From assembly GCA_043759945.1 (NCBI GenBank), contig JAYUPS010000333.1, positions 1-62,293 on the forward strand: a stretch of 62,293 bases of DNA, written 5' to 3'. Under the pieces are notes generated by a model. The model searched no databases. It was not told the origin of the DNA and worked only from the letters and a program-made list of their open reading frames with translations. Below, piece after piece: positions 28,963 through 54,022 of the stretch. The DNA comes from Bdellovibrio sp. (GTDB taxonomy: Bacteria; Bdellovibrionota; Bdellovibrionia; Bdellovibrionales; Bdellovibrionaceae). Positions within the stretch are counted from its first letter, which is position 1. Every line of letters starts with the position of its first letter. Both the position numbers and the translations under genes were made by a program.

Positions 28963-31378
28963 GGGACCCTTTCTCCCAGCCTTTTTTTAGACGGGCGACT
29001 TTGGCTTCTAAAGTTTCGTTCGACAAACGAACTCCCTGACCCATCGAAAAATAAAGTGGAAATCCCAATGGCGAAGGATAAGTGACTAACTTCCACTGAA
29101 CCTGCTGCTTTGACAATCGATCCAAAGTGGTGCGCATGCGTTCGCTTTCCAAGGACCCTTTGAGTACCTCCTCGAAACTTTGCCGGATGAGCAGGTTACC
29201 CGGCTCGTGCTTTCGAAAAACCTCGTAAAGCAGACTAGAACTAATTTGCATTTGTCGACCCGATTTGGGCGAGCCCGGATAGCCGCTAAATACCAATCCC
29301 GCAATCGCAGAGACTTCCCGAAACTTGCGTTGACTGAGAGAGCTGACTTCCAGGGAATCTTTTAGTTCAAGTTCGATGTTATCCGAGGAAAAAAAATCAT
29401 CATCAAAAAGTTCCTGAAAGTCGTAGTCTGCGGGCCCCAGGATCTCAAAACCGTATTCGTTGATCGCAAATGAAAAAGTTGCGGGCTGGCGCTGGCTAAA
29501 GCGATGCGCCCACAGTTGACTTAGACCTTCGTGCACAAGTCGCCCCTCAAAGGGATAAACAAACAAGTGACTGCCCTCTTTGGATTCCCATTTTTCAAGC
29601 AAAAGTGATTGCGGCTGCGGTACAGCGGAGCGTTGCCTTTGGGCTTCAAACAAGGGGGCGAGCAATCCTTGGGTTTCTTGGGATCGTTCGCCGATAACTT
29701 CCCGCAGAGAACGACTTAAGGTCTCGGACATGGGAAGCAGTCCTCCGTCCCACGAAGGAATAGTGTTCGTTGGGCGGTTGGTGAGCTTTACGTAAGCCGT
29801 CATATCTTTAATCATGATAAGTTCTAATTTTCGACCACCAAACTGGAACACATCACCCCGCTTCATGCGCGAAATGAAATTTTCCTCCACGGAACCCAGC
29901 TTTTTTTGGTTTTGAAATGCCAAGCGCACCGATTCACGAGAAACTATTGTACCAATCGACATCCGATGCAAAGTCGCCAAACGACGATTGCTCAATCGAT
30001 AGTACCCGGTTTCTTGATCGTAGGAAATCTTATGAAACTGCGGATAGGCTTTAAGAGTTTCACCGCCCTTGGTTAGAAATTGCAAACACCACTGCAGTTC
30101 CTTTTCGGTAATTTCTGAAAATGAAAAGGTGGACTTTACGGCCTCTGTCAATTCATCCATGCGCAGTCCCGGACCACAAGCCAGCGTCGTCATATGTTGA
30201 AGTAAAACATCAATCGGCTTTTTCAGGGGATGGCGATTTTCAACGTGTCTTGCATCCAATGATTTTCGAACGGCCTCAAGTTCCAAGATCTCCCAGGAAT
30301 TTGTGGGCAGAAATAATAACTGACTGGTGCCGCCCGGACGATGTGCCGAACGACCCGCTCGCTGAATAAGCCGCGCCACCAGTTTCGGACTGCCGATTTG
30401 CACAACTTTTTCCACAGGCTGAAAATCGACTCCCAAATCCAAAGACGAGGTGCAAATAACCCATTTCAGGTCGCCATTGCGAATACCCTCTTCCACCATT
30501 TCACGGTCTTCGCGATCCAGAGAACTGTGGTGAATGGCGATAAGATCTTTCATATCGGGGCGGCTCTGAACAAAGGCCTCGTACCAACGCTCGGCTTGAG
30601 AACGGGTGTTTGCAAAGATAAGCGTCGATTCATCCGGATTGAGTGTCGCCAATAACTTGTCTTTGAGCGCAAAACCCAGGTGTCCTGCCCAGGGGAATCC
30701 ATCAATGCGGTCGGGAAGCAGGCATTCCATATCTAATTTTCGATCGGAACCGCCGGAAATAATTTTGGGACGAATCGTTGGACCAACTGCGACTTGGGCG
30801 GCTTCTTCAAGATTTCCAATGGATGCCGAAAGTGCGATCACTTGCAGTTCGGGATTTAAAAATCGCAGGTAAGACAAAGACAGTTCCAGCAGACTGCCTC
30901 TTTTACTGGAAAGAAGCTCATGCCATTCGTCCAAGATGACAACTTCGATCGTTTTTAAATAATTTTCAGCATCGATCTGCGAAATTAAGACCGCCAAAGA
31001 CTCTGGCGTCGTTAACAAAAGATCCGGAGGACTAAGAAGTTGTTTTTTCTTTGCCGAACCCTTGGTGTCTCCGGTTCGCGATTCGATCTTGATAGACCAG
31101 CCCTCTTGCTCGATGGGTTCCCGAATCGCATGCTCTATGTCCCGCGTCAGCGCCCGCAAGGGTGTTAGATACAACGCTTTAAGCCCCTTTTTTGGTTTTG
31201 CTAAAAATCGCGCCAGGGGGCCCAAGACCGCGGCATAAGTTTTCCCGCTTCCTGTCGGCACATGCAGCAGTGTCGATTCACCATCAAGAAAAGCATTCCA
31301 AGCTTCTTCTTGAAACGGGAAGGGTTTCCATTTTCGGCTTTTAAAAAACTTTTGGATCGGTAGAAGTTCTGCTCTCAC
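28940..31378 (-). CDS. ligase-associated DNA damage response DEXH-box helicase (Lhr-core-like)
   Basis: 812 aa. Motifs are PTGSGKT (Walker A), ILDEWHEL (DExH) and QRAGRSAHR (motif VI). Confidence 0.85.
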   Translation of the reverse strand: MRAELLPIQKFFKSRKWKPFPFQEEAWNAFLDGESTLLHVPTGSGKTYAAVLGPLARFLAKPKKGLKALYLTPLRALTRDIEHAIREPIEQEGWSIKIESRTGDTKGSAKKKQLLSPPDLLLTTPESLAVLISQIDAENYLKTIEVVILDEWHELLSSKRGSLLELSLSYLRFLNPELQVIALSASIGNLEEAAQVAVGPTIRPKIISGGSDRKLDMECLLPDRIDGFPWAGHLGFALKDKLLATLNPDESTLIFANTRSQAERWYEAFVQSRPDMKDLIAIHHSSLDREDREMVEEGIRNGDLKWVICTSSLDLGVDFQPVEKVVQIGSPKLVARLIQRAGRSAHRPGGTSQLLFLPTNSWEILELEAVRKSLDARHVENRHPLKKPIDVLLQHMTTLACGPGLRMDELTEAVKSTFSFSEITEKELQWCLQFLTKGGETLKAYPQFHKISYDQETGYYRLSNRRLATLHRMSIGTIVSRESVRLAFQNQKKLGSVEENFISRMKRGDVFQFGGRKLELIMIKDMTAYVKLTNRPTNTIPSWDGGLLPMSETLSRSLREVIGERSQETQGLLAPLFEAQRQRSAVPQPQSLLLEKWESKEGSHLFVYPFEGRLVHEGLSQLWAHRFSQRQPATFSFAINEYGFEILGPADYDFQELFDDDFFSSDNIELELKDSLEVSSLSQRKFREVSAIAGLVFSGYPGSPKSGRQMQISSSLLYEVFRKHEPGNLLIRQSFEEVLKGSLESERMRTTLDRLSKQQVQWKLVTYPSPLGFPLYFSMGQGVRLSNETLEAKVARLKKGWEKGSLENHSPK

Positions 31379-33057
31379 CGGAACTCACTTTTTTGAATTA
31401 CGCCGGCGGCGGCGTTGAGCAAATGCATCGCCGTCTGCAAAGTATCGGCGTCTTCGACCTTCTTATCTTTACGCCAACGTAAAATGCGCGGAAAACGCAC
31501 CGCTATTCCCGATTTATGACGCTTTGACGCCAAGATGCCCTCAAATGCGATTTCAAAAACATGATGGGGTTGAAGACTGCGCACGGGACCAAATTTTTCT
31601 TTCGTGTGCCTGCGAATCCAAGCATCCAATTCATCGATTTCCGCCTGATTAAGCCCCGAATACGCTTTGGCAAAAGGAACCAGCTGCCGTTCGTTTTTTT
31701 CATTTTCTGCGGACCACAAAGCAAAGGTGTAATCTGTGTACAGGTTCGCGCGACGGCCCGTCCCCGCCTGGGCATAGATAAGAGCGGCATCCAAGGTCAA
31801 GGGATCTACTTTGTGTTTCCACCAAGCTCCCGTTTTTCGCCCAACACTGTAATTGCTCTCCCAGTCTTTGAGCATGAGCCCTTCGGCGTCCGTTTCTCTA
31901 GACTGGGCTCTCAAGGCCTCTAAGTCTTCTAAACTTTCTGCTTTTAAAATTGGAGACACCAGAAAATGATCGCTCACTAAGGGCTGGCAAAGTTCGTTCA
32001 AGTGCATTTTGCGCGCTCTCAGTGACTTTTGGCGGATGTCTTGGCCCTGATATTCCAAACAATCATAGGCCATGAATCCCGCAGGATAATCTTTCAATGT
32101 GGTTGGCGAAACTTTCTTTCGCCCCAATCGTTTTTGCAAAGCTTGAAAAGGTTGAATCCGCCCGTCTTTGATAATCAAAATCTCGCCATCCAGAACACTA
32201 CCCGCCGGAAGTTTTTCAAATAAGCCCACCAAGTCTGGAAAAGATCTTTTGATTTCCTCTTCGCCGCGAGACCAAATCCAAAGATTTTCCTTTCCTTGAT
32301 CCTCCCGCTTTATGGCTTGCGATCGGATACCGTCGTATTTCCATTCAATCGCCCAGGTCGCGGGATTCCAATCTTTTTGGGATCGATCTGTCCAGGCATG
32401 AGCTAAACAAAACGGATAAGGTTGGCTCGGAACAAATTCAATCGTCCCCGGGCTGATGAGTCTTTCAAAATTTTCGCCGCCGGGGGCAACTTGGCCGGTC
32501 AACCGATGCGCCACCAGATCTGTCGGCACTCCAAAAACATCAGCGAGCGCGCGGACAACCAGTCTTTCACTGACTCCGACCCGAAAACCGCCGGTCATTA
32601 ATTTACTAAGAACAAATATTTCCGAGGGCAAAAGCTGCTTCCAGTATTCAAGAAGCTTCTGTGATTTCTGGTTCACATCTTCAATTTCGGCGATTTGGGG
32701 GATTTCAGTTTCCATCCATTCACTCAAAGTTTTATCAACTAAGTTGGTATTCTTATCTCCCTCTTTTTTGGTAAGCCCTTGGGACTGCAAGAGCAAGCTC
32801 ACGGTCTCTGCGGTATCGCCGACCTGCGAATAACTTTCCTCGAAGAGCCAGTCGGGGTAATTGGTGGCTTTCAAAAACAGCTCCCGAACGGATCTCGAGG
32901 TCAAAACTCGCTTCGAAACCCGAGACGTTAAAATTAATACCGCCCACATCGCATCCTGAGAATTTGTTTGTGCAAAATACTTTTTCAGAACGTCTATCTT
33001 TTCATTTGTCGAAGTCGTGGCGTCAACATTTTCGAAAAGCTGGGTAAAGGCCTTCAC
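31375..33057 (-). CDS. ATP-dependent DNA ligase
   Basis: 560 aa. The adenylation motif is EWKYDGIRSQ. Motifs EGLMLK and WWKHK are also present. It has 4-nt overlaps with both neighbours. Confidence 0.85.
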   Translation of the reverse strand: MKAFTQLFENVDATTSTNEKIDVLKKYFAQTNSQDAMWAVLILTSRVSKRVLTSRSVRELFLKATNYPDWLFEESYSQVGDTAETVSLLLQSQGLTKKEGDKNTNLVDKTLSEWMETEIPQIAEIEDVNQKSQKLLEYWKQLLPSEIFVLSKLMTGGFRVGVSERLVVRALADVFGVPTDLVAHRLTGQVAPGGENFERLISPGTIEFVPSQPYPFCLAHAWTDRSQKDWNPATWAIEWKYDGIRSQAIKREDQGKENLWIWSRGEEEIKRSFPDLVGLFEKLPAGSVLDGEILIIKDGRIQPFQALQKRLGRKKVSPTTLKDYPAGFMAYDCLEYQGQDIRQKSLRARKMHLNELCQPLVSDHFLVSPILKAESLEDLEALRAQSRETDAEGLMLKDWESNYSVGRKTGAWWKHKVDPLTLDAALIYAQAGTGRRANLYTDYTFALWSAENEKNERQLVPFAKAYSGLNQAEIDELDAWIRRHTKEKFGPVRSLQPHHVFEIAFEGILASKRHKSGIAVRFPRILRWRKDKKVEDADTLQTAMHLLNAAAGVIQKSEFR

Positions 33058-34091
33058 ACGCTGACCCCTTCGGTGTCCTGATATTCTGTCTCGAACAAAC
33101 GAACATCCAAATTTTTCTCTTTAAGATAGCGCTCTAGCACATCCGTCTTACCATGAGTCAAAAAGATGGTTTTTGCGCCCGTTTGTTCGATGGTTAAATT
33201 TAGCTCGGCCCAGTCGGCATGATCTGAAAGCACGAACCCTTTTTCGTAGCCTTTACGTCGACGGGCTCCGCGCACTTGCATCCATCCCGACGCAAACGCC
33301 GTTTGTGGAAGTTTAAATCTTTTCATCCAGGTTGAACGGTGGGCCGAGGGTGGAGCTAAGATCAATTGACCCTTAAAATCAGTTGTTTTGTCGGTTTCCG
33401 CAATGGGGATTGTGGGAAGCATCCGCACACCCTGCTCGCGATAAATTTCCGTCAAAGTTTGAATCGCTCCATGCAGGTAAACAGATTGTCTTGTCAGGGG
33501 CGCGAGTTCCGCTAAAATTCGTTGAGCTTTTCCCAGGGCATAACAAAATAAGATCGAGGGTCTGTCGGGATCGGACTGCCACCATTCAAATATTTTCCTG
33601 CCGGTAACATCGCCTGGCTCCCATTGGTAAATCGGCAGGGCAAAGGTTGCTTCGGAAACAAAAGTATCGCACTTCACCACTTCAAATGGGTCACAGCTTG
33701 GATCTGGAGTTCTTTTGTAATCACCCGATAGAACCCAAACCTGGCCCTGGTGTTCGATCCGAACTTGCGAAGATCCCAGAATGTGCCCAGCGGGATGAAA
33801 ACTGACGGTCGTTGCCCCCAGCTGAAATTTCTTTCCGTATGCATAGCCTTGAATATTAATGTTCGCACCCAATCGGTGATAAAGCAGCGGAACGCATTTC
33901 TGACTTGAGTAGTAGTTTTTCGATCCCACGCGCGCATGGTCGGAATGCCCATGAGTGATCACAGCCACATCCACGGGTCGCCAAGGATCAATGTAGAAAT
34001 CCCCGGCCTGACAATAAAGGCCTTTCTTGGTGACCGTCACAAGATCTTTCATCAATTCTTTCATTGGGCCGGGTATAACATTATTCCCCAT
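33054..34091 (-). CDS. ligase-associated DNA damage response exonuclease (metallo-beta-lactamase / beta-CASP fold)
   Basis: MBL motif ITHGHSDH. The C-terminal LSDHAD is beta-CASP-like. It is the first gene of the operon. Confidence 0.8.
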   Translation of the reverse strand: MGNNVIPGPMKELMKDLVTVTKKGLYCQAGDFYIDPWRPVDVAVITHGHSDHARVGSKNYYSSQKCVPLLYHRLGANINIQGYAYGKKFQLGATTVSFHPAGHILGSSQVRIEHQGQVWVLSGDYKRTPDPSCDPFEVVKCDTFVSEATFALPIYQWEPGDVTGRKIFEWWQSDPDRPSILFCYALGKAQRILAELAPLTRQSVYLHGAIQTLTEIYREQGVRMLPTIPIAETDKTTDFKGQLILAPPSAHRSTWMKRFKLPQTAFASGWMQVRGARRRKGYEKGFVLSDHADWAELNLTIEQTGAKTIFLTHGKTDVLERYLKEKNLDVRLFETEYQDTEGVSV

Positions 34092-35220: not shown

Positions 35221-36264
35221 ATGAAAATTTCTCTTCGAAAAAAACTGTTTCAATCGGCAGCGGCTATTGGATTTGCGTTGGGCCTGACCGCAATTCCTTT
35301 GGTAGCAAAAACGGCAACACCCGACAAAGACATGAAAAAAGTTTTGGATCAACTGGCTTCTAAAAATGGAAAGCCAATTGAAACTTTATCCCCTGCTGAA
35401 GCCCGAATGCAGCCTTCTCCGGCCGATGCTGTGAAAGATATTTTGGTGAAAGAAAAAATGGAAAAAACTCCGCCACTAGCATCAGTGAATGACATTACCA
35501 TCACGGGTGCAGCCGGAAATATCTCCGCCAGGGTCTACACTCCCAAAGGCAAGGGCCCACTGCCAGTGGTGGTCTATTACCACGGCGGTGGATTTGTCAT
35601 TGCGACCAATGACACCTACGACGCGACCCCACGCTCGCTCGCCAGTCAATCCGGAGCAATTTTTATATCAGTTGAATATCGAAAAGCTCCCGAATCAAAA
35701 TTTCCTGCGGCTCACGACGATGCCTTTGCGGCTTACAAGTGGGTGCTGGCAAATGCGGCCACATTGGGTGGTGATTCTACGCGTGTGGCGGTTGCGGGAG
35801 AAAGTGCCGGTGGAAACCTGGCACTGAATGTGGCGATCAAAGCCCGAGACGAAAAGATTCAAACTCCCGTTTACTCGCTCCTGGTCTATCCCGTGGCCAG
35901 CAACGATTTGAATTCTGCGTCTTATAAAGAGCATGCTTCCGCCAAGCCTTTAAATAAACCAATGATGGAGTGGTTCGTAAAACAATACTTGGTCTCGCCG
36001 GATCAGGCGAAAGATCCACGCATCAATTTGGTGGCCGCAAACCTAAAGGGCCTGCCCGCGACAACAATTATCACGGCCGAAATTGATCCTTTGCAGGTTG
36101 ATGGAAGTCTTTTGGCAGATAAATTGAAACAAGCCGGAGTCAAAGTGAACTACAAGAATTACAAGGGCGTGACCCACGAGTTTTTCGGCATGGCCGCTTT
36201 GGTGGATGATGCAGAAGAAGCGCAAGAGTACGCGGTCTCTGATCTAAAAAAATCTTTCAAATAG
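35221..36264 (+). CDS. secreted alpha/beta hydrolase, hormone-sensitive-lipase-type esterase
   Basis: Signal peptide present. The oxyanion motif is YYHGGGF, the nucleophile elbow is GESAGGN, and a C-terminal His lies in GVTHEF. Confidence 0.8.
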   Translation: MKISLRKKLFQSAAAIGFALGLTAIPLVAKTATPDKDMKKVLDQLASKNGKPIETLSPAEARMQPSPADAVKDILVKEKMEKTPPLASVNDITITGAAGNISARVYTPKGKGPLPVVVYYHGGGFVIATNDTYDATPRSLASQSGAIFISVEYRKAPESKFPAAHDDAFAAYKWVLANAATLGGDSTRVAVAGESAGGNLALNVAIKARDEKIQTPVYSLLVYPVASNDLNSASYKEHASAKPLNKPMMEWFVKQYLVSPDQAKDPRINLVAANLKGLPATTIITAEIDPLQVDGSLLADKLKQAGVKVNYKNYKGVTHEFFGMAALVDDAEEAQEYAVSDLKKSFK

Positions 36265-37672
36265 ATTCTTCTAATTTAGCGGCTAATTTCAAATCCTCGA
36301 CCAAATCGCGCAAGCGTTGGTCGAGCTCTTCTTGGTTGAAAGAACGTAAAATCGCAGCGGGATGCCAAGAGATAATTACTGATTTCGCGTAGGGATTATC
36401 TTTGATAATTTTCCCGCGTTCGCTGCCAATTTTCGGTAACCGCCCCAGAACGCTCGTGGCCGCAGTTATCCCGAGGGCTACAATAATATCGGGTTTCACG
36501 TGATTGATTTCGGCTTCGAGCCACGGTCGACAGGCATGCATCTCGGTGCCCGTGGGTTTTTGATGAATACGAGCTTTGCTGGACCCTTCCGCGGGGCGCC
36601 CTTCCGCGGGGCGCCACTTGAAATGCTTAACTGCGTTTGTTAGGTAGACGCTTTCGCGATTTAAGCCGGCTTGGCTGAAAGCCCGATTGAGCATTTCCCC
36701 GGCGGGCCCCACAAACAGTCGGCCGCTCAAGTCCTCTTGGTCGCCGGGTTGTTCTCCGACAATAAAAATTCTTGCGTCTTCGGGACCCTCGCCAAAAACA
36801 GTTTGGGTTGCGTGGCTGTAGAGCGGACAGGCCGTGCAGACTTTGGCGGCCTGTTTTAAAACTTGGAGACTCTTTGTGTCAGGCACTTTGGCTTGGATAT
36901 TTTGTTTTTTTGCCATCTCTTGCAATCTTTGTGGCGCTTGGCGCACAAGTTCCTGCATGATCTCGATCTCTGGCAGGCTCTCCCAATACTTTGGAGCCAT
37001 TTCCGCTCTCATAGCCTTGATTTTAATACGGGCCGGATTAAAAATTGAGGCGTAATAGGATTTCCACAACTCGTCGAAATCATCTTTGAACTTGAATTGA
37101 TTTTGGGGAATTCCCTCGGAGAAAGTAAGTCTCATTCCATCCCAATGGGCGGAACTGTCAGGGGTAAAGATCGACCAGGGTTTATCACCGAAACGACGAA
37201 CAAAAAATTGAGCGCCCTCTTCGAGACAGGGATGCTCGGGGCGATGCCAAGCGACGTAGCGCTGTTCACCCTGCCATTCGACTTCTTTAAACCGAACAAA
37301 GGCATGCATTTTATGAAGATCCCGCTTTACTGATTTGTACAAATCATTGAATTTCAAAATGTCGGAATCAATCAAGATATTTAAAAGTTCGGGTTCGTCA
37401 TTTTGCAGTCGAAACAAGATTCGATAAAGCAAAGCCCACTTGCCATCGTCTCGACTTAAGGAAACAAACCGGGCGGCCTTTAAAAATTCCGGCGGGACCG
37501 TGGGACTTTTCTTTATTGGCACGACCGGCTCTGAGATCTGCATCGAAAAAAGATTTAAAGACTCGCTGGCTTCGCTCCACTGAATATGCTCCGGCTCTAT
37601 CCCCGCGATCAAAAGTCGGCGTGCTTCAACCCTCCAACTTTTAAAATGGGGCTCAAACTGAGCGGTAATCAT
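36257..37672 (-). CDS. DUF4130 domain fused to a family-4 / UdgX-like uracil-DNA glycosylase domain (partner of the DNA modification/repair radical SAM protein)
   Basis: 471 aa. The C-terminal half has CTACPL (Fe-S Cys), VGEQPGDQED (motif A), NAVKHFKW...KARIHQKP...ACRPW and SWHPAAILR (motif B). There is a 4-nt overlap with the upstream radical SAM gene. Confidence 0.75.
   Translation of the reverse strand: MITAQFEPHFKSWRVEARRLLIAGIEPEHIQWSEASESLNLFSMQISEPVVPIKKSPTVPPEFLKAARFVSLSRDDGKWALLYRILFRLQNDEPELLNILIDSDILKFNDLYKSVKRDLHKMHAFVRFKEVEWQGEQRYVAWHRPEHPCLEEGAQFFVRRFGDKPWSIFTPDSSAHWDGMRLTFSEGIPQNQFKFKDDFDELWKSYYASIFNPARIKIKAMRAEMAPKYWESLPEIEIMQELVRQAPQRLQEMAKKQNIQAKVPDTKSLQVLKQAAKVCTACPLYSHATQTVFGEGPEDARIFIVGEQPGDQEDLSGRLFVGPAGEMLNRAFSQAGLNRESVYLTNAVKHFKWRPAEGRPAEGSSKARIHQKPTGTEMHACRPWLEAEINHVKPDIIVALGITAATSVLGRLPKIGSERGKIIKDNPYAKSVIISWHPAAILRSFNQEELDQRLRDLVEDLKLAAKLEESI
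36586..36615 (-). repeat. perfect 15-bp tandem duplication CTTCCGCGGGGCGCC x2 inside the glycosylase gene
   Basis: Read directly: 36586-36600 is identical to 36601-36615. It is in frame and encodes RPAEG-RPAEG. Confidence 0.95.
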
Positions 37673-38958
37673 AATTCTCCGTTAACCGCAGACTTGGTGA
37701 CGTCAAACAAAGTCAGCTGTTGCGCTTTGGGTTTCAACCGATTTTCCAAGGTGTCCGAATCAATCAATAGCAAATCCGCGTTGTGATCCGCAGTTTTTAT
37801 AAAAAATCGAGCGCGGTTCCACGCAATACGAAACTTTTTTAAGTCCTCGACGCGAAGCTTTCGATATTTCCGAACCAGGAGCATGCGGTCGACATTTCTT
37901 ACCCCAAATCCAGGCACCCTTAAAAGTTCTTCCCGTGAGCCGGTATTCACATCAACCGGAAAAAAACTGCGGTGCCCGATGGCCCATGCCGTCTTGGGAT
38001 CCAGCTCAAGAGATAAATTTTTATTTTTCTCGTCCGTCAGTTCCCCCGCCTTAAAATCATAGAACCGAATGAGCCAATCCGCTTGGTACAAACGATTTTC
38101 ACGAATCAGCGAAGGTTTCTCGACCGGAAGCAAAGCATCCGCATGGGGAATCGGACTGTAAGCCGAGTAATAGACGCGCTTTAATTTAAAGTCGTCGTAC
38201 AATTTTGACGAAGTCTCCAAAATACTTGCGTCCGTGCTTTCGGTAGCGCCCACGATCATTTGCGTGGTTTGACCGGCCGGCGCAAACTTCAAAACATTTT
38301 TAAATTTCTTTTGGTCTTCTTTGGTTTCGATAAGCTTTTCTTTGATCTGGCTCATTGTTGCTTCGGCGGCATCAATTGTTTTTGCCGGTGCCAAGCGATC
38401 CAGATCGGATTGCAGGGGCATTTCGATATTGGCGGAAATTCGATCAGCCCAGATCCCCGCTCGCTCGGTCAGCTCCTGGGATGAGCCGGCCACGACCTTG
38501 AGATGGATGTAACCGTTGAAGCGATGATCCTGGCGCAGGGATCTGGCCACTTCGATAAGCAGTTCCATGGTGCTGTCGGGGCTGTCGATAATCCCTGAGC
38601 TTAAAAATAATCCTTCGATATAATTTCGACGATAAAACTCAAGGGTCAGCCAAACGACTTCGGCCGGCGTAAATTTAGCTCGCTTGGTGTCACTCGAAAC
38701 GCGATTGATACAAAATTTGCAGTCATAAATGCAGTAATTGGTAAGCAGAATTTTTAAAAGCGAAACGCATCGGCCATCGGGTGTATAGCTGTGGCAAATT
38801 CCCATTCCTTCCACGTTGCCCATTCCGTTGGGATCACGGGTGCGCTTTGCGCCGCTGCTCGAACATGAGGCATCATATTTTGCGGCATCCGCTAAGATTT
38901 TCAATTTGGCTTGAACGGCGACGGCAGAGATGGTCGGCAGGCGTGCATTTTCATTCAT
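37669..38958 (-). CDS. putative DNA modification/repair radical SAM protein with C-terminal helix-hairpin-helix
   Basis: 429 aa. The CxxxCxxC cluster motif is CIYDCKFC. The HhH-like segment is ELLRVPGFGVRNVDRML. Confidence 0.8.
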   Translation of the reverse strand: MNENARLPTISAVAVQAKLKILADAAKYDASCSSSGAKRTRDPNGMGNVEGMGICHSYTPDGRCVSLLKILLTNYCIYDCKFCINRVSSDTKRAKFTPAEVVWLTLEFYRRNYIEGLFLSSGIIDSPDSTMELLIEVARSLRQDHRFNGYIHLKVVAGSSQELTERAGIWADRISANIEMPLQSDLDRLAPAKTIDAAEATMSQIKEKLIETKEDQKKFKNVLKFAPAGQTTQMIVGATESTDASILETSSKLYDDFKLKRVYYSAYSPIPHADALLPVEKPSLIRENRLYQADWLIRFYDFKAGELTDEKNKNLSLELDPKTAWAIGHRSFFPVDVNTGSREELLRVPGFGVRNVDRMLLVRKYRKLRVEDLKKFRIAWNRARFFIKTADHNADLLLIDSDTLENRLKPKAQQLTLFDVTKSAVNGEL

Positions 38959-38961
38959 AAC

Positions 38962-38978
38962 TTACATATAATTTACAT
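38962..38978 (-). promoter_or_regulatory. direct-repeat box TTACAT-ATAAT-TTACAT, 3 nt from the radical SAM start codon
   Basis: The plus strand reads TTACATATAATTTACAT. It is 16/17 identical to the box at 53415-53431. There is no SD between the box and the ATG at 38958. Confidence 0.5.
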
Positions 38979-39005
38979 GCGCCGAGAAGTCTACCAATGA
39001 CGCTC

Positions 39006-39587
39006 TTAAATGATTTGAAATTGAATGGGTTTGCAATGACCGCCGTTGGTTCCCTCGTCCGAACAGGCGGTTAGACCTAAGACCAGGTCACGGCAGGCTT
39101 GGAGCACAACGTAGTCGCCCGCTTTCGAAGTCGGAGGCCGTATCTCGATCTTTCCGGACTGCTGAACCAAAACATTCATAAAAATATTGAAAGTCGCAGT
39201 GACCTGCCATTCCCCGATTCCAAATGGCTTAAGATTCTGGATTAAGTTTTCAGCACAGCTTGGATGATAGTCCTGACTTGGATTCATCATCTGAAACATC
39301 TGCCGGCTACAAGGGGTAACCAAAATATCGTGTTGCTCGCAGGTGTCTTCAACGATTTCCATAAGGTCGTTTCCGGAATGACCAAAAAGCTTGTGGCCTT
39401 GTCGCAGGTAAATGGTTTCATTGTAGTCAATAGTCCGCCCCGCAGAAAGTGAATCATTTAAATTTTGGGCGTCCGCACAAAACAGATCCGAGACCTGACG
39501 ACCCTCCACATCGATGACTTTCAACTTCTGACCTTGCTCGAGCCGAAAAGCTATTCCTTGCTGTGACTTAATCGTTTGAATACTCAT
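39006..39587 (-). CDS. DUF1989 (urea carboxylase-associated / carboxyguanidine deiminase-like) family protein
   Basis: The start at MSIQTIK (39587) overlaps the upstream stop (ATGA). Motifs are GQKLKVIDVEGRQVSDLF, EDTCEQHDILVTPC, NIFMNV and AGDYVVLQACRDLVLGLTAC. Confidence 0.7.
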   Translation of the reverse strand: MSIQTIKSQQGIAFRLEQGQKLKVIDVEGRQVSDLFCADAQNLNDSLSAGRTIDYNETIYLRQGHKLFGHSGNDLMEIVEDTCEQHDILVTPCSRQMFQMMNPSQDYHPSCAENLIQNLKPFGIGEWQVTATFNIFMNVLVQQSGKIEIRPPTSKAGDYVVLQACRDLVLGLTACSDEGTNGGHCKPIQFQII

Positions 39588-40237
39588 CTGAATTGAAAGG
39601 GACATTTCCAATGGTCCGGATTTACCTGACCAGAAAACTGAATTGCTTCCCGGGCATCATGGTGGCGTTCGACCATTGGATTGACACATCCCTGAAATTT
39701 AAAATCTCTTTCCCGGTTTGTTTCAATCATCGGGTGATACAAACCTTGGGAATCGAGCTGGCGAAATTGTTCGTACACATTAAAAATCAAAGCCGGCCAC
39801 GGGAACCGACGTGCTTTGCGAGAACTTTCGGGGTGCAATCCGACGACAAAAAAAGCCATGCCCTCGAGCGAAAAGCAAAAATTATGGTCCTCGGGATTGT
39901 TGCTAAAATCAGGATCTTTGTCGAACGTTTTGGTTTTTAGGCTAGTCAACGAAGAAAGTTCGCTCCAAAGTCGCGATTCAAACTGCGCTTCGTTCATTTC
40001 CCCTGAATTTTTAAACACTGCCCAGAAAGTAAAGTAAGGCGATTTGGTCTTCTGGTAGATAACTTTATAGGCCAATAGATCTTCCCGCAATTCGGGTCGT
40101 TGATACTTCTTCCCAAATTCATCATAAATTTTTAGCTGATAATCCTTTTTGTTAAAAGACCTTAGCGCCGCCACACAAGGATAATTCTTTTGCGAAAATA
40201 TTAAGTTGATCGCCGATTCGACTTGGTCATCCGCCAT
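39584..40237 (-). CDS. YqcI/YcgG family protein (family of the heme-dependent N-hydroxylase GntA)
   Basis: 217 aa. Motifs are NYPCVAALRSF, YFTFWAVF and MAFFVVGLHPESSRKARRFPWPALIFN. Confidence 0.7.
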   Translation of the reverse strand: MADDQVESAINLIFSQKNYPCVAALRSFNKKDYQLKIYDEFGKKYQRPELREDLLAYKVIYQKTKSPYFTFWAVFKNSGEMNEAQFESRLWSELSSLTSLKTKTFDKDPDFSNNPEDHNFCFSLEGMAFFVVGLHPESSRKARRFPWPALIFNVYEQFRQLDSQGLYHPMIETNRERDFKFQGCVNPMVERHHDAREAIQFSGQVNPDHWKCPFQFR

Positions 40238-50704: not shown

Positions 50705-51202
50705 CTAGCGAATCGCCTTCAATGCGGCTTCGTAATTGGGCTCTTGAGTAATGTCCGGCACAAGTTCGGTGTAAACGACTTTGTTGTCGGGGGACAAAAT
50801 CACAACCGCTCGGGCCATCAAGCCCATAAATGCACTGTCCGCGAGCTGCAGTCCCCACTCTTTTCCAAGAGGGCTTCTGAACGCGGAAACCGTCTCGCAA
50901 TTTTTAATTCCTTCGGCACCACAAAAACGCGCGAGCGCAAACGGAAGATCATAGGAAACATTAATGACCGTCGTATTTTTTAGCCCGCTGGCTTCTTTGT
51001 TAAATCGGCGAACCGAAGCGGCGCAAACGCCGGTATCGATGCTCGGGAAAATATTCATAACTTTGAATTTTCCAGCAAATTGATCCGTTGAAATTTCGGT
51101 CAGATCCGTTTTTACAAGTTTTGAGAAATTCACGGTCTGTCCAACTTTGGGAAGATCGCCAACCGTATTTACCGGGGTTCCTTGGAATGCCAATTTTGCC
51201 AT
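50705..51202 (-). CDS. tpx: thiol peroxidase (atypical 2-Cys peroxiredoxin)
   Basis: Near-colinear with my recollection of E. coli Tpx. Motifs are NIFPSIDTGVCAASVRRFN and LPFALARFCGAEG. Confidence 0.9.
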   Translation of the reverse strand: MAKLAFQGTPVNTVGDLPKVGQTVNFSKLVKTDLTEISTDQFAGKFKVMNIFPSIDTGVCAASVRRFNKEASGLKNTTVINVSYDLPFALARFCGAEGIKNCETVSAFRSPLGKEWGLQLADSAFMGLMARAVVILSPDNKVVYTELVPDITQEPNYEAALKAIR

Positions 51203-51232: not shown

Positions 51233-53410
51233 TCATGAGATGGGGTCCGCTGTCATCTGATCCTTTGCCGGGGGCTCAATGCGTCTTCCGTTAATCATCA
51301 GAAGCAGCTGGGCTGCGGCCCGAGCATCGCACATCGCACGGTGATGTTGCTCCAGTTTAATATCAAAGTGACTCGTCAGATTTTTCAGGCTGTAAGAGGA
51401 AATTCCCGGAAAGTTTTTACGCATTCCGGCCACCGTGCACATCTGCGGACGAACATAATTTGAATCTAGTCTTTGGAATTCGCGCTGAATAAATCCGTAA
51501 TCAAACCTCACGTTGTGCGCGACAAAAATAGCGCCTTTGGTGAATTCCTGAAAACGATCTGCCACTTCGGCAAAAACCGGTGCGTTTTTTACCATTTCGT
51601 CATTGATTCCCGTGATCATCGTGATGTTGCGGGGAATCGGTCTTCCGGGATTTAGCAAAGTTTGAAACTCGTCGATAATTTCGCCGTTTTGGACTTTGAC
51701 CGCGCCGATTTCGGTACAACGGTGAAAACCTGAAGATCCCCCGGTGGTTTCTACGTCGACCACCACGTAAACTTGATTCGGATCCGTTTGCCAGCGCACT
51801 TTTAGTATTTCAACTTCAAAACCCGCTTCGGTCAGTAGTCGCACTTTAGAAAGTTGTTTGGTGCGAAGACTGTCGCCTTCGGCTTTTACTTCGACAAAGG
51901 ACGGAATGCCCTGTTTCACAACCATCAGATCCGGGTAGCCGCTGTGGTAAGAACTAAATTTTTGAGCCATCGTCCGAAAGATCAATGCCAAGTTTTTTCC
52001 CTGCGAATTTCTTAAAAACTCGAGCACCGTCGTTAAAAGATTGGGATGCCACTGAAAAATATCGTTCAGTTTTCCGTAATGCTGGGTCACGGTTTTCAAA
52101 ATGTATTTTTCGGTATTTTTTAGGTCCGAGAGAAGCAAAAGCTTTTTCTCCACGTCTAATTTGTGATTATCGTAGAATTCAGGACCCACAAGATCACTGG
52201 GGGATCGTTCAAAGGGATTAAAAATTGCCGTCCCTTCGTTTTCGAAGAGTTCGTCCCAAAACAAAAGACCAAAAAGTCCCACCCACAAATAATTTTCGGT
52301 AAAATGAGCAGCAAAGCCTTGTTTCCGAAAGAAATCGCGAACGCCACGCTCTGGTTTCCTAAGGTAAAAATCACTCAAAGTCAGCTCTTTGGCATTCTGA
52401 AGAATCTCGGTTAGATAACCGACTTTTTTCTTGTCAAATTTGCGCGCTAAAAAATCTTCGGCAAACAACAGTTCTTCATCGCCGGCTGGTTCTTGAATTA
52501 TCGCATTCAAAAGTGCGCGGCATTCTTCTTTGCGGCTGAGTTTGTAAAGAAGTCGCGCTTGGCGCTCTTTTGCCGGTGGAGTCCGGCATTCTGCCAAAGC
52601 TTGCAGAGCAATTTCGGGATCTCTGATCTCGGATTGACTTGCGATGTCCAATAAAAGTTGATCCTTCAACGCCAACGCTGTTGGCTTCAAATCCTTTTGA
52701 ATCTTACAAAAGTTCAGAAGCTCACGGACTTGTTCGGAGTCTTTTAGCTCCTGAAAAGTTTCAACTTTGTGGGATAATTGATACTCGGTGTAAGCTTCTT
52801 CCAAAACTGAAAAGCGAGGCTTAAAATTAGTTTTCAAAGTGCTCGTTTTGCGAATGCCCAAATCCCGTAGGGTGTACAAGCCTAATGATTTCTGAATTCG
52901 TCCAAAATACAGAAAAAACAGGTAGTCGAGATCCGCACCCTTTTTTTGAACAACGATATCCTCCGCATTCGGCAAATGGGGCAGCAACAAAGACTCTAGA
53001 TTTGTTCTGGCAAAATCGATAATTTCTTCTCGGGATGCCGAGGACTTGACCTCGAACCCTGATTTCAGGAGCCAGGTTCGTAAATTTGATTTGGTCAGAA
53101 AATCCGGAAGCTGGGATTTGTCCTGTTCGGCGGGAACCGCGACGAAACTTTTGCTCTGCAGTTCCGCGATGCATTGGATCGGGTCTGCAATTTCCGAATA
53201 CTTCTTAAAAGACTTCAGACTAAAGATTTCGCCTTTGCGGTTGATCATGCGTACGAATATGCACTGTGCGTCTTCCGACAATTCCCGGAACTCCAACAAG
53301 AATTCCTTGTGTGCTTCCTGGAGAACAGGTTGATAATGTTCCTCAAGCACTTCGATCAGTTCAAAAAAGTGATCCAAATAGTATTTGGCGGACAAAATCG
53401 GAAGTGCCAT
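51233..53410 (-). CDS. FAN1-like VRR-NUC nuclease fused to a C-terminal DnaQ/epsilon-type 3'-5' exonuclease
   Basis: 725 aa. The N-terminus YYLDHFFELIEVLEEHY...FVRMINRKGEIF is FAN1-like. The SAP-like segment is LTKSNLRTWLLKSGF. The VRR-NUC core is GYPDLMVV...SFVEVKAEGDSLRTKQ. The DEDDh exonuclease motifs are VVVDVETTGG, FVAHNVRFDYGF and HHRAMCDARA. Confidence 0.75.
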   Translation of the reverse strand: MALPILSAKYYLDHFFELIEVLEEHYQPVLQEAHKEFLLEFRELSEDAQCIFVRMINRKGEIFSLKSFKKYSEIADPIQCIAELQSKSFVAVPAEQDKSQLPDFLTKSNLRTWLLKSGFEVKSSASREEIIDFARTNLESLLLPHLPNAEDIVVQKKGADLDYLFFLYFGRIQKSLGLYTLRDLGIRKTSTLKTNFKPRFSVLEEAYTEYQLSHKVETFQELKDSEQVRELLNFCKIQKDLKPTALALKDQLLLDIASQSEIRDPEIALQALAECRTPPAKERQARLLYKLSRKEECRALLNAIIQEPAGDEELLFAEDFLARKFDKKKVGYLTEILQNAKELTLSDFYLRKPERGVRDFFRKQGFAAHFTENYLWVGLFGLLFWDELFENEGTAIFNPFERSPSDLVGPEFYDNHKLDVEKKLLLLSDLKNTEKYILKTVTQHYGKLNDIFQWHPNLLTTVLEFLRNSQGKNLALIFRTMAQKFSSYHSGYPDLMVVKQGIPSFVEVKAEGDSLRTKQLSKVRLLTEAGFEVEILKVRWQTDPNQVYVVVDVETTGGSSGFHRCTEIGAVKVQNGEIIDEFQTLLNPGRPIPRNITMITGINDEMVKNAPVFAEVADRFQEFTKGAIFVAHNVRFDYGFIQREFQRLDSNYVRPQMCTVAGMRKNFPGISSYSLKNLTSHFDIKLEQHHRAMCDARAAAQLLLMINGRRIEPPAKDQMTADPIS

Positions 53411-53414
53411 TGAT

Positions 53415-53431
53415 TTACATATTATTTACAT
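53415..53431 (-). promoter_or_regulatory. direct-repeat box TTACAT-ATTAT-TTACAT, 4 nt from the FAN1-DnaQ start codon
   Basis: The plus strand reads TTACATATTATTTACAT. It is 16/17 identical to 38962-38978. It lies in the 36-bp divergent gap between 53410 (-) and 53447 (+). Confidence 0.5.
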
Positions 53432-53446
53432 AGAGGATGCGAAGCA

Positions 53447-54022
53447 ATGAACAAAAATCGACTCGAGGCATTTAGTGATGGTGTTATGGCAATTATCATC
53501 ACCATCATGGTTTTAGAATTAAAGGTTCCTCACGGCGCAAGTTTTGAAAATCTAGTTCCCCTGGCTCCAATATTTTTAAGTTACATTTTGAGTTTCATCT
53601 ACGTCGGAATTTATTGGAACAATCACCACCATCTGTTTCAAATCGTAAAAGTCGTTAACGGTCCGATTTTGTGGGCAAATATGCATTTGTTATTTTGGCT
53701 TTCGATTACACCTTTTGTTACTGCCTGGTCCGGCGAAAATAACTTTCAGGAACTGCCCGTTGCACTTTATGGCGTCGCGCTCTTTATGTGCGGTGTGGCC
53801 TATTACATTTTGGCGCAGGTTTTAACTAAACATCATGGAAAAGATTCTGACTTAGCAAAAGCAATTGGCGACGATTTCAAAGGGCGACTTTCCTTGTTAA
53901 TTTATTCGATGGGTATCGGGCTGGCCTTTGTTAATCCCTACATTTCGCTGACGCTCTACATTGCCGTGGCGATTATCTGGCTCGTGCCAGACCGTCGAGT
54001 TGAAAAAGTCATCGAAGCTTAG
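53447..54022 (+). CDS. TMEM175 (DUF1211) family potassium channel
   Basis: RLEAFSDGVMAIIITIMVLEL is the signature first helix. There are 6 TM helices. Confidence 0.8.
   Translation: MNKNRLEAFSDGVMAIIITIMVLELKVPHGASFENLVPLAPIFLSYILSFIYVGIYWNNHHHLFQIVKVVNGPILWANMHLLFWLSITPFVTAWSGENNFQELPVALYGVALFMCGVAYYILAQVLTKHHGKDSDLAKAIGDDFKGRLSLLIYSMGIGLAFVNPYISLTLYIAVAIIWLVPDRRVEKVIEA

What the first reader, a model, noticed from the sequence alone, without database searches (positions are those of the whole stretch)
38959..39005. Near-identical 17-bp direct-repeat box (TTACAT-N5-TTACAT) abutting the start codons of two unlinked DNA-repair loci
TTACATATAATTTACAT (38962-38978) lies 3 nt from the ATG of the radical-SAM/UdgX-like operon. 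TTACATATTATTTACAT (53415-53431) lies 4 nt from the ATG of the FAN1-DnaQ fusion.
- They are 16/17 identical and have the same orientation relative to both minus-strand genes.
- The half-site period is 11 bp, one helical turn.
- Neither gene has a Shine-Dalgarno sequence between the box and the ATG.
- In gene orientation the box reads ATGTAAAT(T/A)ATATGTAA and embeds a -10-like hexamer (TTATAT / TAATAT) 7-8 nt upstream of the ATG.

This fits leaderless mRNAs whose promoter is covered by a repressor operator, that is, a small damage-inducible regulon. By-eye scanning of the other intergenic regions found only single TTACAT copies inside genes. The ligase-associated operon lacks the box.
Basis: partly seen in the sequence, partly recalled or inferred. 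Interest (0 to 1): 0.7.

Follow-up and report, generated by a model that had tools for sequence, protein, structure and literature searches.

The report
Direct-repeat LexA (SOS) operator boxes
The two near-identical 17-bp boxes are real, conserved regulatory sites, most likely binding sites for the DNA-damage repressor LexA in a Bdellovibrio-like bacterium, placed over the core promoters of two DNA-repair operons that seem to be transcribed without a leader.

Summary
TTACAT-N5-TTACAT occurs exactly twice in 62 kb (expected 0.01), 3-4 nt from the start codons of a radical-SAM/UdgX operon and a FAN1-DnaQ gene. The window comes from a Bdellovibrionales relative.

- **Conservation:** the box sits at the same position upstream of 15 of 21 Bdellovibrionales radical-SAM orthologues. 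It is also upstream of 2 of 5 full-length FAN1-DnaQ orthologues examined outside the window.
- **Geometry:** the layout is constant: TTGAC-like -35, 16-17 bp, T[T/A]ATAT inside the box, then 7-9 nt to the ATG. This points to leaderless transcripts.
- **Link to lexA:** the same 11-bp-period repeat (TTACAY-N5-TTACAY) fills the core promoter of lexA(-imuA-imuB-dnaE2) operons. These are two Oligoflexia genomes and one unclassified metagenome contig. Other lexA promoters carry lineage-specific versions (TTACGT, TTACGC, TGTATA).
- **Covariation:** half-site positions 5 and 6 covary with two residues of the LexA recognition helix in 7 of 7 cases, one predicted before look-up.
- **Neighbouring lineages:** lexA lies divergently next to the radical-SAM operon in four sister loci.

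My conclusion is a lineage-specific, direct-repeat LexA operator. It is a new variant of a known kind, because the published B. bacteriovorus box is the palindrome TTAC-N3-GTAA. LexA binding, damage induction and the transcription start are inferred, and the window organism's own lexA was not seen.

The parts
38962..38978 (-). SOS-box 1. In gene orientation it reads ATGTAAATTATATGTAA: two TGTAA half-sites 11 bp apart. The tandem 11-mer unit extends to 38957-38978. Proposed LexA operator.
   Evidence: (PWM score 32.3). Conserved upstream of 15 orthologues.
38966..38971 (-). -10-like hexamer TTATAT, formed by the spacer between the two half-sites, 7 nt before the A of the ATG.
   Evidence: T[T/A]ATAT is near-invariant across orthologous promoters.
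38988..38993 (-). -35-like hexamer TAGACT, 16 bp upstream of TTATAT.
   Evidence: The column consensus TtGAc lies at the same place in 16 aligned promoters.
37669..38958 (-). Putative DNA modification/repair radical SAM protein (TIGR03916). First gene of the regulated operon. Its ATG at 38956-38958 is the proposed 5' end of a leaderless mRNA.
36257..37672 (-). DUF4130 (TIGR03915) fused to a UdgX-family uracil-DNA-binding domain. Second gene of the operon, overlapping the first by 4 nt.
53415..53431 (-). SOS-box 2. In gene orientation it reads ATGTAAATAATATGTAA. The exact 9-mer ATTTACATA occurs twice at spacing 11 (53413-53432). Proposed LexA operator.
   Evidence: (PWM score 29.8). Conserved upstream of FAN1-DnaQ in L104/L105 and L106.
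53419..53424 (-). -10-like hexamer TAATAT inside box 2, 8 nt before the A of the ATG.
53442..53447 (-). -35-like hexamer TTGCTT, 17 bp upstream of TAATAT. It abuts and overlaps the start codon of the divergent TMEM175 gene.
   Evidence: The orthologues have TTGACC/TTGACT at 16 bp.
51233..53410 (-). FAN1_HTH + VRR-NUC nuclease fused to a DnaQ-type 3'-5' exonuclease. Regulated gene 2.
50705..51202 (-). Thiol peroxidase (Tpx), 30 bp downstream of FAN1-DnaQ on the same strand, with its own AAGGAG. Possibly co-transcribed. The synteny is kept in L104.
   Evidence: Co-transcription was not tested.
53447..54022 (+). Divergent TMEM175-family channel gene. Only 36 bp separate its ATG from the FAN1-DnaQ ATG, so box 2 lies 15 nt upstream of it.
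   Evidence: The same divergent arrangement occurs in L104.

Best explanation
The boxes are LexA operators (SOS boxes) of a Bdellovibrionota lineage. Here the operator is a head-to-tail direct repeat, TTACAY-N5-TTACAY with an 11-bp period, rather than a palindrome.

At both window loci the operator is fused to the core promoter. The AT-rich spacer between the half-sites is the -10 hexamer (T[T/A]ATAT). A TTGAC-like -35 lies 16-17 bp upstream. The ATG follows 7-8 nt after the -10, so transcription should start at or next to the A of the ATG, giving a leaderless mRNA.

A LexA dimer on the two half-sites would cover positions -26 to -4 relative to the A of the ATG and exclude RNA polymerase. RecA-stimulated self-cleavage of LexA after DNA damage would then derepress both loci, the radical-SAM/UdgX operon and the FAN1-DnaQ nuclease-exonuclease.

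**Shown here:** the motif, its conservation, its constant geometry, its presence in lexA promoters of relatives, and its covariation with the LexA recognition helix.

**Inferred:** LexA binding, the transcription start, damage induction, and that the window organism's own LexA belongs to the TTACAT-recognising type.
For: 1. **Non-random and specific.** There are 2 exact matches against 0.01 expected. The strict pattern NTGTAA-N6-TGTAAN occurs in the window plus 21 Bdellovibrionales loci only upstream of radical-SAM orthologues and at the two window sites. PWM scores of true sites are 24.7-32.4, apart from the degenerate L008 site at 19.8. The best background hit over 1.5 Mb scores 18.3.

2. 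**Conserved geometry.** The information content is 2 bits at TGTAA..T.A..TGTAA, with a second peak at TtGAc. In 17 of 18 promoters the -10 to ATG gap is 7-9 nt.

3. **FAN1-DnaQ orthologues.** L104 (71% identity, same synteny) and L106 (60%) carry GTGTAAATAATATGTAAGT behind TTGACC/TTGACT.

4. **lexA promoters carry the same repeat.**
   - L099: TTGACTTACATATAACTTACAT.
   - L101 and L103 (Oligoflexia MAGs): TTGACTTACACAT[T/A]ACTTACAC.
   - L108: TTGACTTACGTAAAACTTACGT.
   - In 7 lexA promoters the longest self-match among offsets 6-15 is at offset 11 (6-11 nt). Only 2.3% of shuffles reach 6 nt or more.

5. **Orientation.** The box is inverted relative to the gene at lexA compared with the radical-SAM and FAN1 genes. 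That fits a DNA-bound repressor. It does not fit a directional promoter or RNA element.

6. **Helix covariation.** LexA with 'FSVQQ' pairs with TTACAT, 'FSVQR' with TTACAC, 'GSVQR' with TTACGC and 'SSVQQ' with TTACGT. All 7 cases are consistent, and one (P0139) was predicted at position 6 before look-up.

7. **Physical linkage.** lexA is divergent from, and shares a 44-bp operator region with, the radical-SAM operon in L010-L012, and is adjacent in L018.

8. **Literature.** The half-site TTAC/GTAA equals that of the experimentally defined B. bacteriovorus LexA box TTAC-N3-GTAA. LexA is known to bind an 11-bp-period direct repeat in Alphaproteobacteria (GTTC-N7-GTTC). The UDG/radical-SAM two-gene operon (COG1573-COG4277) is reported as SOS-regulated in Verrucomicrobia and Alphaproteobacteria and predicted so in Bacteroidetes (PMC8565304, PMC3323433).
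Against: - No lexA gene lies in the window, and no single genome was shown to carry the box at both lexA and a target gene. The link is made across lineages.
- The published Bdellovibrio LexA box is a palindrome with different spacing, which the window boxes do not contain.
- Three of five other full-length FAN1-DnaQ orthologues examined (L081, L082, L107) lack the box.
- The window promoters are weak by consensus: TAGACT/TTATAT and TTGCTT/TAATAT are not called by the simple sigma-70 scan.
- No terminator separates the upstream DUF1989 gene from box 1, so read-through transcripts with long leaders are possible.
- The helix-to-base covariation rests on about five independent lineages.
Confidence: 0.78

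Rival explanations
1. The box is an operator for a different, non-LexA DNA-damage regulator. Candidates are a winged-helix (OmpR/PhoB-type) protein, which typically binds 10-11-bp-period direct repeats, or an XRE/WYL-type damage regulator. Such a regulator would control lexA-imuAB-dnaE2, radical-SAM/UdgX and FAN1-DnaQ together.
For: The direct-repeat architecture with an 11-bp period is the hallmark of tandem winged-helix binding. LexA-independent damage regulators exist in related groups, for example DdiA in Myxococcus (PMC12288472). Campoy et al. [quoted passage not shown] No LexA binding was measured here.
Against: The repeat sequence covaries with LexA recognition-helix residues in 7 of 7 lexA promoters. 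The position overlaps -35/-10, which means repression rather than response-regulator activation. The half-site equals the known Bdellovibrio LexA half-site. No regulator gene other than lexA is recurrently linked: lexA is the divergent neighbour of the radical-SAM operon in L010-L012 and L018.
Confidence: 0.12
2. The box acts directionally rather than as a repressor site. It could be a special promoter element for an alternative sigma factor. Or it could act on the transcript, since ATG-TAA, GTG-TAA and TTG-TAA read as start-stop mini-ORFs.
For: The first base of each half-site varies only among A, G and T, so every variant is a start codon followed by TAA. The distance to the real ATG is tightly conserved.
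Against: At lexA promoters the same repeat occurs in the opposite orientation relative to the gene. That is incompatible with a directional promoter or RNA element. L008 has TTGTTAG, which is not a start-stop. Ordinary TTGAC -35 and TWATAT -10 elements explain transcription. There is no Rfam match.
Confidence: 0.04
3. The resemblance is chance similarity in AT-rich intergenic DNA, or a short dispersed repeat without function.
For: With 2 mismatches allowed the pattern is as frequent as in shuffles. The motif is AT-rich.
Against: Exact matches are 200-fold over expectation. The box is conserved at orthologous positions in lineages whose proteins are only 60-77% identical, while flanking bases are not. 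It is absent from the remainder of about 1.5 Mb.
Confidence: 0.01

Closest known systems
Bdellovibrio bacteriovorus LexA box TTAC-N3-GTAA (Campoy et al. 2005, as cited in PMC8565304 and PMC3323433)
   Same: It comes from the same order-level group and has the same half-site core (TTAC / GTAA, here TTACA / TGTAA). From my memory of the paper's abstract, which is not held here, it controls lexA and a dinP/dnaE-type cassette. That is the same context in which the direct repeat is found in L099, L103 and L108.
   Different: The published site is an 11-bp inverted repeat. The window boxes are direct repeats 11 bp apart and contain no TTAC-N3-GTAA. The targets here, radical-SAM/UdgX and FAN1-DnaQ, were not reported for B. 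bacteriovorus as far as I recall.
Alphaproteobacterial LexA box GTTC-N7-GTTC
   Same: It is a direct-repeat LexA operator with the identical 11-bp period, overlapping core promoters. The UDG/radical-SAM operon is among reported alphaproteobacterial SOS genes (PMC8565304).
   Different: The half-site sequence differs (GTTC against TTACAY) and the phylum is unrelated. If both bind LexA, the direct-repeat mode arose independently or was retained separately.
SOS regulation of the UDG + radical-SAM (COG1573-COG4277) operon in Verrucomicrobia, Alphaproteobacteria and Bacteroidetes (PMC8565304)
   Same: The same two-gene cassette sits directly behind a LexA-type operator.
   Different: The operator sequence and architecture differ. 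Here the UDG is a UdgX-type domain fused to DUF4130, and the transcript appears leaderless.
OmpR/PhoB-family response-regulator boxes (for example the pho box, direct repeats with a 10-11 bp period)
   Same: Two hexamer direct repeats lie one helical turn apart.
   Different: Those boxes usually replace or lie upstream of the -35 and activate. This box covers the spacer, the -10 and the start site. It is found in lexA promoters and covaries with LexA.

Membership tests
LexA operator (SOS box) | Lies within or overlapping the core promoter of DNA repair or mutagenesis genes | tested here: met
   The box spans the spacer, the -10 and the region up to 3-4 nt from the ATG of the radical-SAM/UdgX and FAN1-DnaQ genes.
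LexA operator (SOS box) | The same motif is present in the promoter of lexA itself (autoregulation) | tested here: met
   This is met in related lineages: L099 (TTACAT-N5-TTACAT) and L101/L103 (TTACAC-N5-TTACAC), with L108, L095, L097 and L098 as lineage variants. It could not be tested for the window's own genome, because lexA is not in the window.
LexA operator (SOS box) | Two half-sites suited to a LexA dimer | tested here: met
   There are two TGTAA half-sites at an exact 11-bp spacing. The arrangement is direct, as in the alphaproteobacterial GTTC-N7-GTTC box, not inverted.
LexA operator (SOS box) | Operator sequence covaries with the LexA DNA-recognition helix | tested here: met
   Q/R in the helix tracks T/C at half-site position 6, and F versus S/G tracks A/G at position 5, in 7 of 7 LexA-promoter pairs. 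The position-6 base of one pair was predicted beforehand. The sample is small.
LexA operator (SOS box) | Specific binding by LexA, and derepression after DNA damage that depends on RecA and LexA cleavage | not testable with these tools
   This needs EMSA or footprinting and expression data.
Published B. bacteriovorus LexA box (TTAC-N3-GTAA palindrome) | An 11-bp inverted repeat TTAC-N3-GTAA | tested here: not met
   There is no such palindrome at either site. The only window match (10078-10088) lies among trehalose genes at chance frequency. Only the half-site is shared.
Leaderless mRNA | The transcription start coincides with, or lies within a few nt of, the A of the start codon, with no Shine-Dalgarno sequence | tested here: inconclusive
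   The geometry fits: the -10 ends 7-9 nt before the ATG in 17 of 18 promoters, and there is no room for an SD. About 24 of 56 other window ORF starts have an SD-like sequence. No transcription-start data exist, and the window promoters fall below the simple scan threshold.
OmpR/PhoB-type response-regulator box | Direct repeats upstream of or replacing the -35, with a linked response-regulator gene | tested here: not met
   The box overlaps the -10 and the start site. The recurrent neighbour is lexA, not a response regulator.

The most novel reading that the evidence does not exclude
LexA of many Bdellovibrionota binds head-to-tail direct repeats with an 11-bp period, TTACAY-N5-TTACAY and lineage variants. 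Under this reading the published TTAC-N3-GTAA palindrome is an incomplete or special-case description.

A simple two-residue recognition code (helix Q/R reading T/C, and F versus S/G reading A/G) tracks operator drift across the phylum.

The operator's spacer doubles as the -10 hexamer of leaderless promoters. It forms a compact composite promoter-operator-start module of about 45 bp. That module has been installed in front of unrelated repair genes, including a FAN1-DnaQ fusion not previously linked to the SOS response.
Probability: 0.5. Interest if true: 0.55.

Novelty: new variant of a known kind. Interest (0 to 1): 0.45.

Why it matters
LexA is the textbook case of a transcription factor whose binding motif has changed repeatedly in evolution. 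A second, independent phylum using an 11-bp direct repeat would help in three ways.

- **Tractable system:** with visible helix-to-base covariation across lineages, it offers a way to study how a dimeric repressor switches between inverted and direct half-site arrangements and retunes base specificity.
- **SOS regulon of predatory bacteria:** the predicted regulon extends beyond lexA and the mutagenesis cassette to a radical-SAM/UdgX system and a FAN1-DnaQ nuclease-exonuclease. That gives a testable functional hint, damage-induced repair, for two poorly understood enzyme systems.
- **Annotation:** the motif allows SOS genes to be called in Bdellovibrionota MAGs.

Tried and rejected
- **Source genome look-up.** An exact-protein look-up of the window's radical-SAM protein found nothing on record. 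The source genome could therefore not be scanned for lexA.
- **Metagenome scan with FAN1-DnaQ.** It gave only three full-length orthologues, none with the box. Closer ones had to be fetched through the protein search.
- **Primary Bdellovibrio LexA paper.** PMC1196036 is not held. The published motif is therefore taken from citing papers.
- **LexA of the complete Bdellovibrio sp. HCB genomes.** These genomes carry the box at the radical-SAM gene, but their LexA was not among the listed hits. A within-genome link is missing.
- **Palindromic LexA box in the window.** There is one chance-level hit among trehalose genes, which I rejected.
- **Known RNA families.** None were found.
- **Simple sigma-70 and terminator scans of both regions.** Neither window promoter is called, and no terminator lies upstream of box 1.
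- **Leaderless-type promoters elsewhere in the window.** A crude scan showed no general pattern.
- **Whole-collection scan for the motif.** I considered this and did not run it. It would be swamped by chance hits, which I estimated at thousands for an AT-rich pattern with about 15 fully specified bases. The single scans were better spent on proteins.
- **Start-stop mini-ORF idea (ATG-TAA).** Rejected because the box is inverted at lexA.

Full report
**1. Observation**

TTACATATAATTTACAT is at 38962-38978 and TTACATATTATTTACAT at 53415-53431 on the + strand. Read on the minus strand they are ATGTAAATTATATGTAA and ATGTAAATAATATGTAA. They end 3 and 4 nt before the ATGs of the minus-strand genes 37669-38958 and 51233-53410.

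Exact TTACAT-N5-TTACAT occurs twice in the window against 0.01 expected, and none of 100 dinucleotide-preserving shuffles has two. With two mismatches allowed the pattern is not enriched: 3 found against 3.97 expected. The signal is therefore the exact pair.

The repeat finder shows that each site is a tandem of 11-nt units. These are ATAACTTACAT/ATAATTTACAT at 38957-38978, and ATTTACATA twice at spacing 11 at 53413-53432.

The gene assignments hold:
- 37669-38958 is the TIGR03916 putative DNA modification/repair radical SAM protein.
- 36257-37672 overlaps it by 4 nt and carries DUF4130/TIGR03915 plus a UdgX-family domain.
- 51233-53410 carries FAN1_HTH, VRR_NUC and a DnaQ-type exonuclease.

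The divergent gene 53447-54022 is a TMEM175-family channel, and only 36 bp separate the two start codons. The ligase-associated Lhr operon (28288-34091) has no box.

**2. Origin of the window**

The radical-SAM protein's best relatives (60-77% identity) are all Bdellovibrionales/Pseudobdellovibrionaceae genomes and MAGs. Planctomycetota, Clostridia and others follow. The exact protein is not on record, so the source genome could not be retrieved.

**3. Conservation at orthologous promoters**

In 15 of the 21 Bdellovibrionales radical-SAM loci the same element lies directly in front of the start codon. The loci are L001, L002, L004-L009, L013-L017, L019 and L020.
- The element reads [A/G]TGTAA[A/G]T[T/A]ATATGTAA[G/A/T].
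- It is followed by a further 2-4 nt and then the ATG.
- L008 is degenerate.

The strict pattern NTGTAA-N6-TGTAAN occurs nowhere else on either strand of the window plus these 21 loci.

A 19-nt weight matrix separates true sites (24.7-32.4; L008 19.8) from the best background hit (18.3) in 1.5 Mb, which includes about 60 non-Bdellovibrionota radical-SAM loci. The flanking genes of the fetched loci serve as an internal negative control.

For FAN1-DnaQ, the fusion is widespread in Bdellovibrionota.
- The closest orthologue is L104/L105 (71% identity). It has the same synteny: ADH and TMEM175 divergent, Tpx downstream.
- A 60% orthologue (L106) and L104/L105 both carry GTGTAAATAATATGTAAGT, 1-3 nt before the ATG.
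- Bdellovibrio sp. qaytius (L107, 55%) and two metagenome orthologues (L081, L082; 57% and 51%) do not.

**4. Promoter geometry**

I anchored 16 non-redundant promoters on the box.
- Information content is 2 bits at TGTAA, at the single T and A positions of the spacer, and at the second TGTAA.
- It falls to about 0.2 bits in the flanks and rises again at a TtGAc block.
- The best -35-like hexamer lies 16 bp (sometimes 17 or 18) upstream of T[T/A]ATAT. It is TTGACT in L015, L019, L020 and L106, and TTGACC in L104.
- T[T/A]ATAT is the spacer between the half-sites.
- The ATG follows 7-9 nt after that hexamer in 17 of 18 cases.

In the window the elements are TAGACT (38988-38993)-N16-TTATAT (38966-38971)-N7-ATG, and TTGCTT (53442-53447)-N17-TAATAT (53419-53424)-N8-ATG.

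This is the geometry of a leaderless transcript. It is an inference only.
- The simple sigma-70 scan does not call either window promoter.
- No terminator separates the upstream DUF1989 gene from box 1.

Many other window genes have clear AAGGAG- or GGAGG-type ribosome-binding sites. The absence of one here is therefore a feature of these genes, not of the organism.

**5. Identity of the regulator**

- The genes are divergent, with a 44-bp shared intergenic region, in L010-L012.
- They are adjacent in L018, and 1.7 kb away in L003.
- The LexA_DNA_bind + Peptidase_S24 architecture was later confirmed by precomputed Pfam hits.

In those loci the shared region carries TGTATA-type repeats at a 12-bp period instead of the TGTAA box.

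I fetched LexA homologues from other Bdellovibrionota-like contigs. Each promoter below is written through to the start codon.

| Locus | Context | Promoter |
|---|---|---|
| L099 | lexA followed by probable imuA-imuB-dnaE2 | TTGACTTACATATAACTTACATATTATGTTCTGAGCC-ATG, an exact TTACAT-N5-TTACAT |
| L101/L102 | Oligoflexia MAG | TTGACTTACACATTACTTACACATATG... |
| L103 | Oligoflexia MAG; lexA-RecA_N(imuA)-imuB-dnaE2 | TTGACTTACACATAACTTACACATATG... |
| L108-L110 | lexA-imuA-imuB-dnaE2 | TTGACTTACGTAAAACTTACGTATTAT... |
| L097 | lexA-dinB | TTACGC-N5-TTACGC |
| L095 | | TTACGT-N5-CTACGT |
| L098 | | ATGTAT-N5-ATGTAT |

In all seven promoters the longest exact self-match among offsets 6-15 is at offset 11 (6-11 nt). 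Only 2.3% of shuffled 80-mers reach 6 nt at that offset.

Oligoflexia is a class of the phylum Bdellovibrionota. The first half-site overlaps the -35 TTGACT and the -10 follows the second, so these lexA promoters also put the ATG 6-9 nt after the -10.

At lexA the repeat points towards the gene (TTACAY orientation). At the radical-SAM and FAN1-DnaQ genes it points away (ATGTAA orientation). An orientation-independent element over the core promoter is what a repressor operator looks like. It argues against a directional promoter element or an RNA-level signal.

**6. Covariation with the LexA recognition helix**

I aligned the LexA proteins (more sequences). The region homologous to E. coli helix 3 reads as follows, paired with the half-site in the cognate promoter.

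| LexA | Helix | Half-site |
|---|---|---|
| P0017 | LFSVQQ | TTACAT |
| P0121 | IFSVQQ | TACAT (contig starts inside the box) |
| P0125, P0126 | FFSVQR | TTACAC |
| P0035 | FGSVQR | TTACGC |
| P0014 | ISSVQQ | TTACGT |

So Gln goes with T and Arg with C at half-site position 6. Phe goes with A, and Ser or Gly with G, at position 5.

Before the last look-up I predicted T at position 6 for P0139 (ISSVQQ). Its promoter has TTACGT.

The pattern holds in 7 of 7 cases but represents only about five independent lineages. The LexA proteins keep the Ala-Gly cleavage site and the Ser/Lys dyad as invariant columns.

**7. Comparison with what is known**

The held literature gives the B. bacteriovorus LexA motif as the palindrome TTAC-N3-GTAA. 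It gives the alphaproteobacterial motif as the direct repeat GTTC-N7-GTTC (PMC8565304, PMC3323433). The primary Bdellovibrio paper is not held.

The window boxes share the TTAC/GTAA half-site with the former and the 11-bp direct-repeat architecture with the latter. They do not contain the palindrome.

The same review-level source reports that a UDG + radical-SAM two-gene operon (COG1573-COG4277) is SOS-regulated in Verrucomicrobia and Alphaproteobacteria and is predicted to be in Bacteroidetes. LexA control of the window's first locus therefore fits a known pattern.

I found nothing in the held library on a direct-repeat LexA motif in Bdellovibrionota. I also found nothing on SOS control of FAN1-DnaQ fusions. 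Absence from this library is not proof of absence.

**8. Mechanism proposed**

A LexA dimer binds the two half-sites one helical turn apart, covering positions -26 to -4 relative to the A of the ATG. It occludes the -10 hexamer that is built into the operator's spacer.

After DNA damage, RecA-stimulated self-cleavage releases LexA. A leaderless mRNA beginning at the ATG is then made.

Shown here are sequence, conservation, geometry, presence at lexA, and covariation. Inferred are binding, induction, the transcription start, and that the window organism's LexA is of the 'FSVQQ'/TTACAT type.

**9. Rivals**

- **A non-LexA regulator that binds direct repeats (about 0.12).** Not excluded without binding data. 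It would not explain the LexA-helix covariation or the lexA linkage.
- **A directional promoter or RNA-level element (about 0.04).** This includes the curious fact that ATG-TAA, GTG-TAA and TTG-TAA half-sites read as start-stop pairs. It is contradicted by the inverted orientation at lexA and by L008.
- **Chance (about 0.01).** Excluded by conservation.

**10. Verdict**

It is a lineage-specific, direct-repeat LexA operator fused to leaderless-type promoters. That makes it a new variant of a known kind.

Interest is moderate. LexA motif plasticity is well known, but three things are useful and testable: an independent direct-repeat LexA system with a readable recognition code, the compact promoter-operator-start module, and the addition of FAN1-DnaQ to an SOS regulon.

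Noticed in passing
window 53411-53446: Only 36 bp separate the divergent start codons of FAN1-DnaQ and the TMEM175-family gene. The proposed -35 of FAN1-DnaQ (53442-53447) overlaps the TMEM175 ATG, and box 2 lies 15 nt upstream of it. LexA binding could therefore also affect the TMEM175-ADH genes. The same divergent arrangement is kept in L104.
   Followed up: partly
L010, L011, L012 (about 9930-9980); L018 (about 9800-9860): lexA and the radical-SAM/UdgX operon are divergent, with a 44-bp intergenic region: AAAGTATACAAAAAGTTATACATAAAGTATAC. It carries TGTATA/TATACA repeats at an 11-12-bp period, which is a different operator dialect. These LexA proteins have a different helix (GSVQK/GSVQT).
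   Followed up: partly
L015, L019, L020 (just upstream of the box, about 9940-9960 / 2320-2340); L004, L007, L013: A third, inverted half-site precedes the direct repeat. In L015, L019 and L020 it overlaps the -35: TTGAC-TTACAT-ATAT-ATGTAA (L020) and TTACAC-GTAC-GTGTAA, a perfect 16-bp palindrome (L019). In L004, L007 and L013 it forms the palindrome TTACATATGTAA. The spacing of the inverted pair varies (N4 or N8), whereas the direct pair is always 11 bp apart.
   Followed up: no
L099 3770-3780: TTACATTGTAA is an exact instance of the published B. bacteriovorus LexA palindrome TTAC-N3-GTAA. It lies 137 nt upstream of the lexA ATG, in addition to the direct repeat in the core promoter. It may be a second operator.
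   Followed up: no
L107 9950-10000 (Bdellovibrio sp. qaytius CP025734): The FAN1-DnaQ orthologue has TTGACC-N17-TAGAAT-N7-ATG but no box. The leaderless-type promoter is kept while the operator is absent. This suggests the operator was gained or lost on a pre-existing leaderless promoter.
   Followed up: no
L016 9473-9500: The box is intact, but the position of the start codon reads ATA instead of ATG, and the next ATG is 59 nt downstream. This could be a sequencing error, a non-canonical start or a decaying gene.
   Followed up: no
window 10078-10088: This is the only TTAC-N3-GTAA palindrome in the window (TTACGATGTAA). It lies in the overlap zone of a GH15 trehalase-like ORF and a trehalose-6-phosphate synthase/phosphatase ORF. 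The frequency is at chance level (0.54 expected).
   Followed up: yes
window 39006-40237: Directly upstream of the radical-SAM operon on the same strand are a DUF1989 protein (urea-amidolyase-associated type) and a YqcI/YcgG protein. The latter matches the GntA guanitoxin N-hydroxylase model above its cut-off. No terminator was found between them and box 1.
   Followed up: no
window 28288-34091: The ligase-associated repair operon has no box. It comprises a 345-aa ORF with no Pfam match (by position possibly the ligase-associated exonuclease), an ATP-dependent ligase, an Lhr helicase and a 224-aa ORF with no Pfam match. It is apparently outside this regulon.
   Followed up: partly
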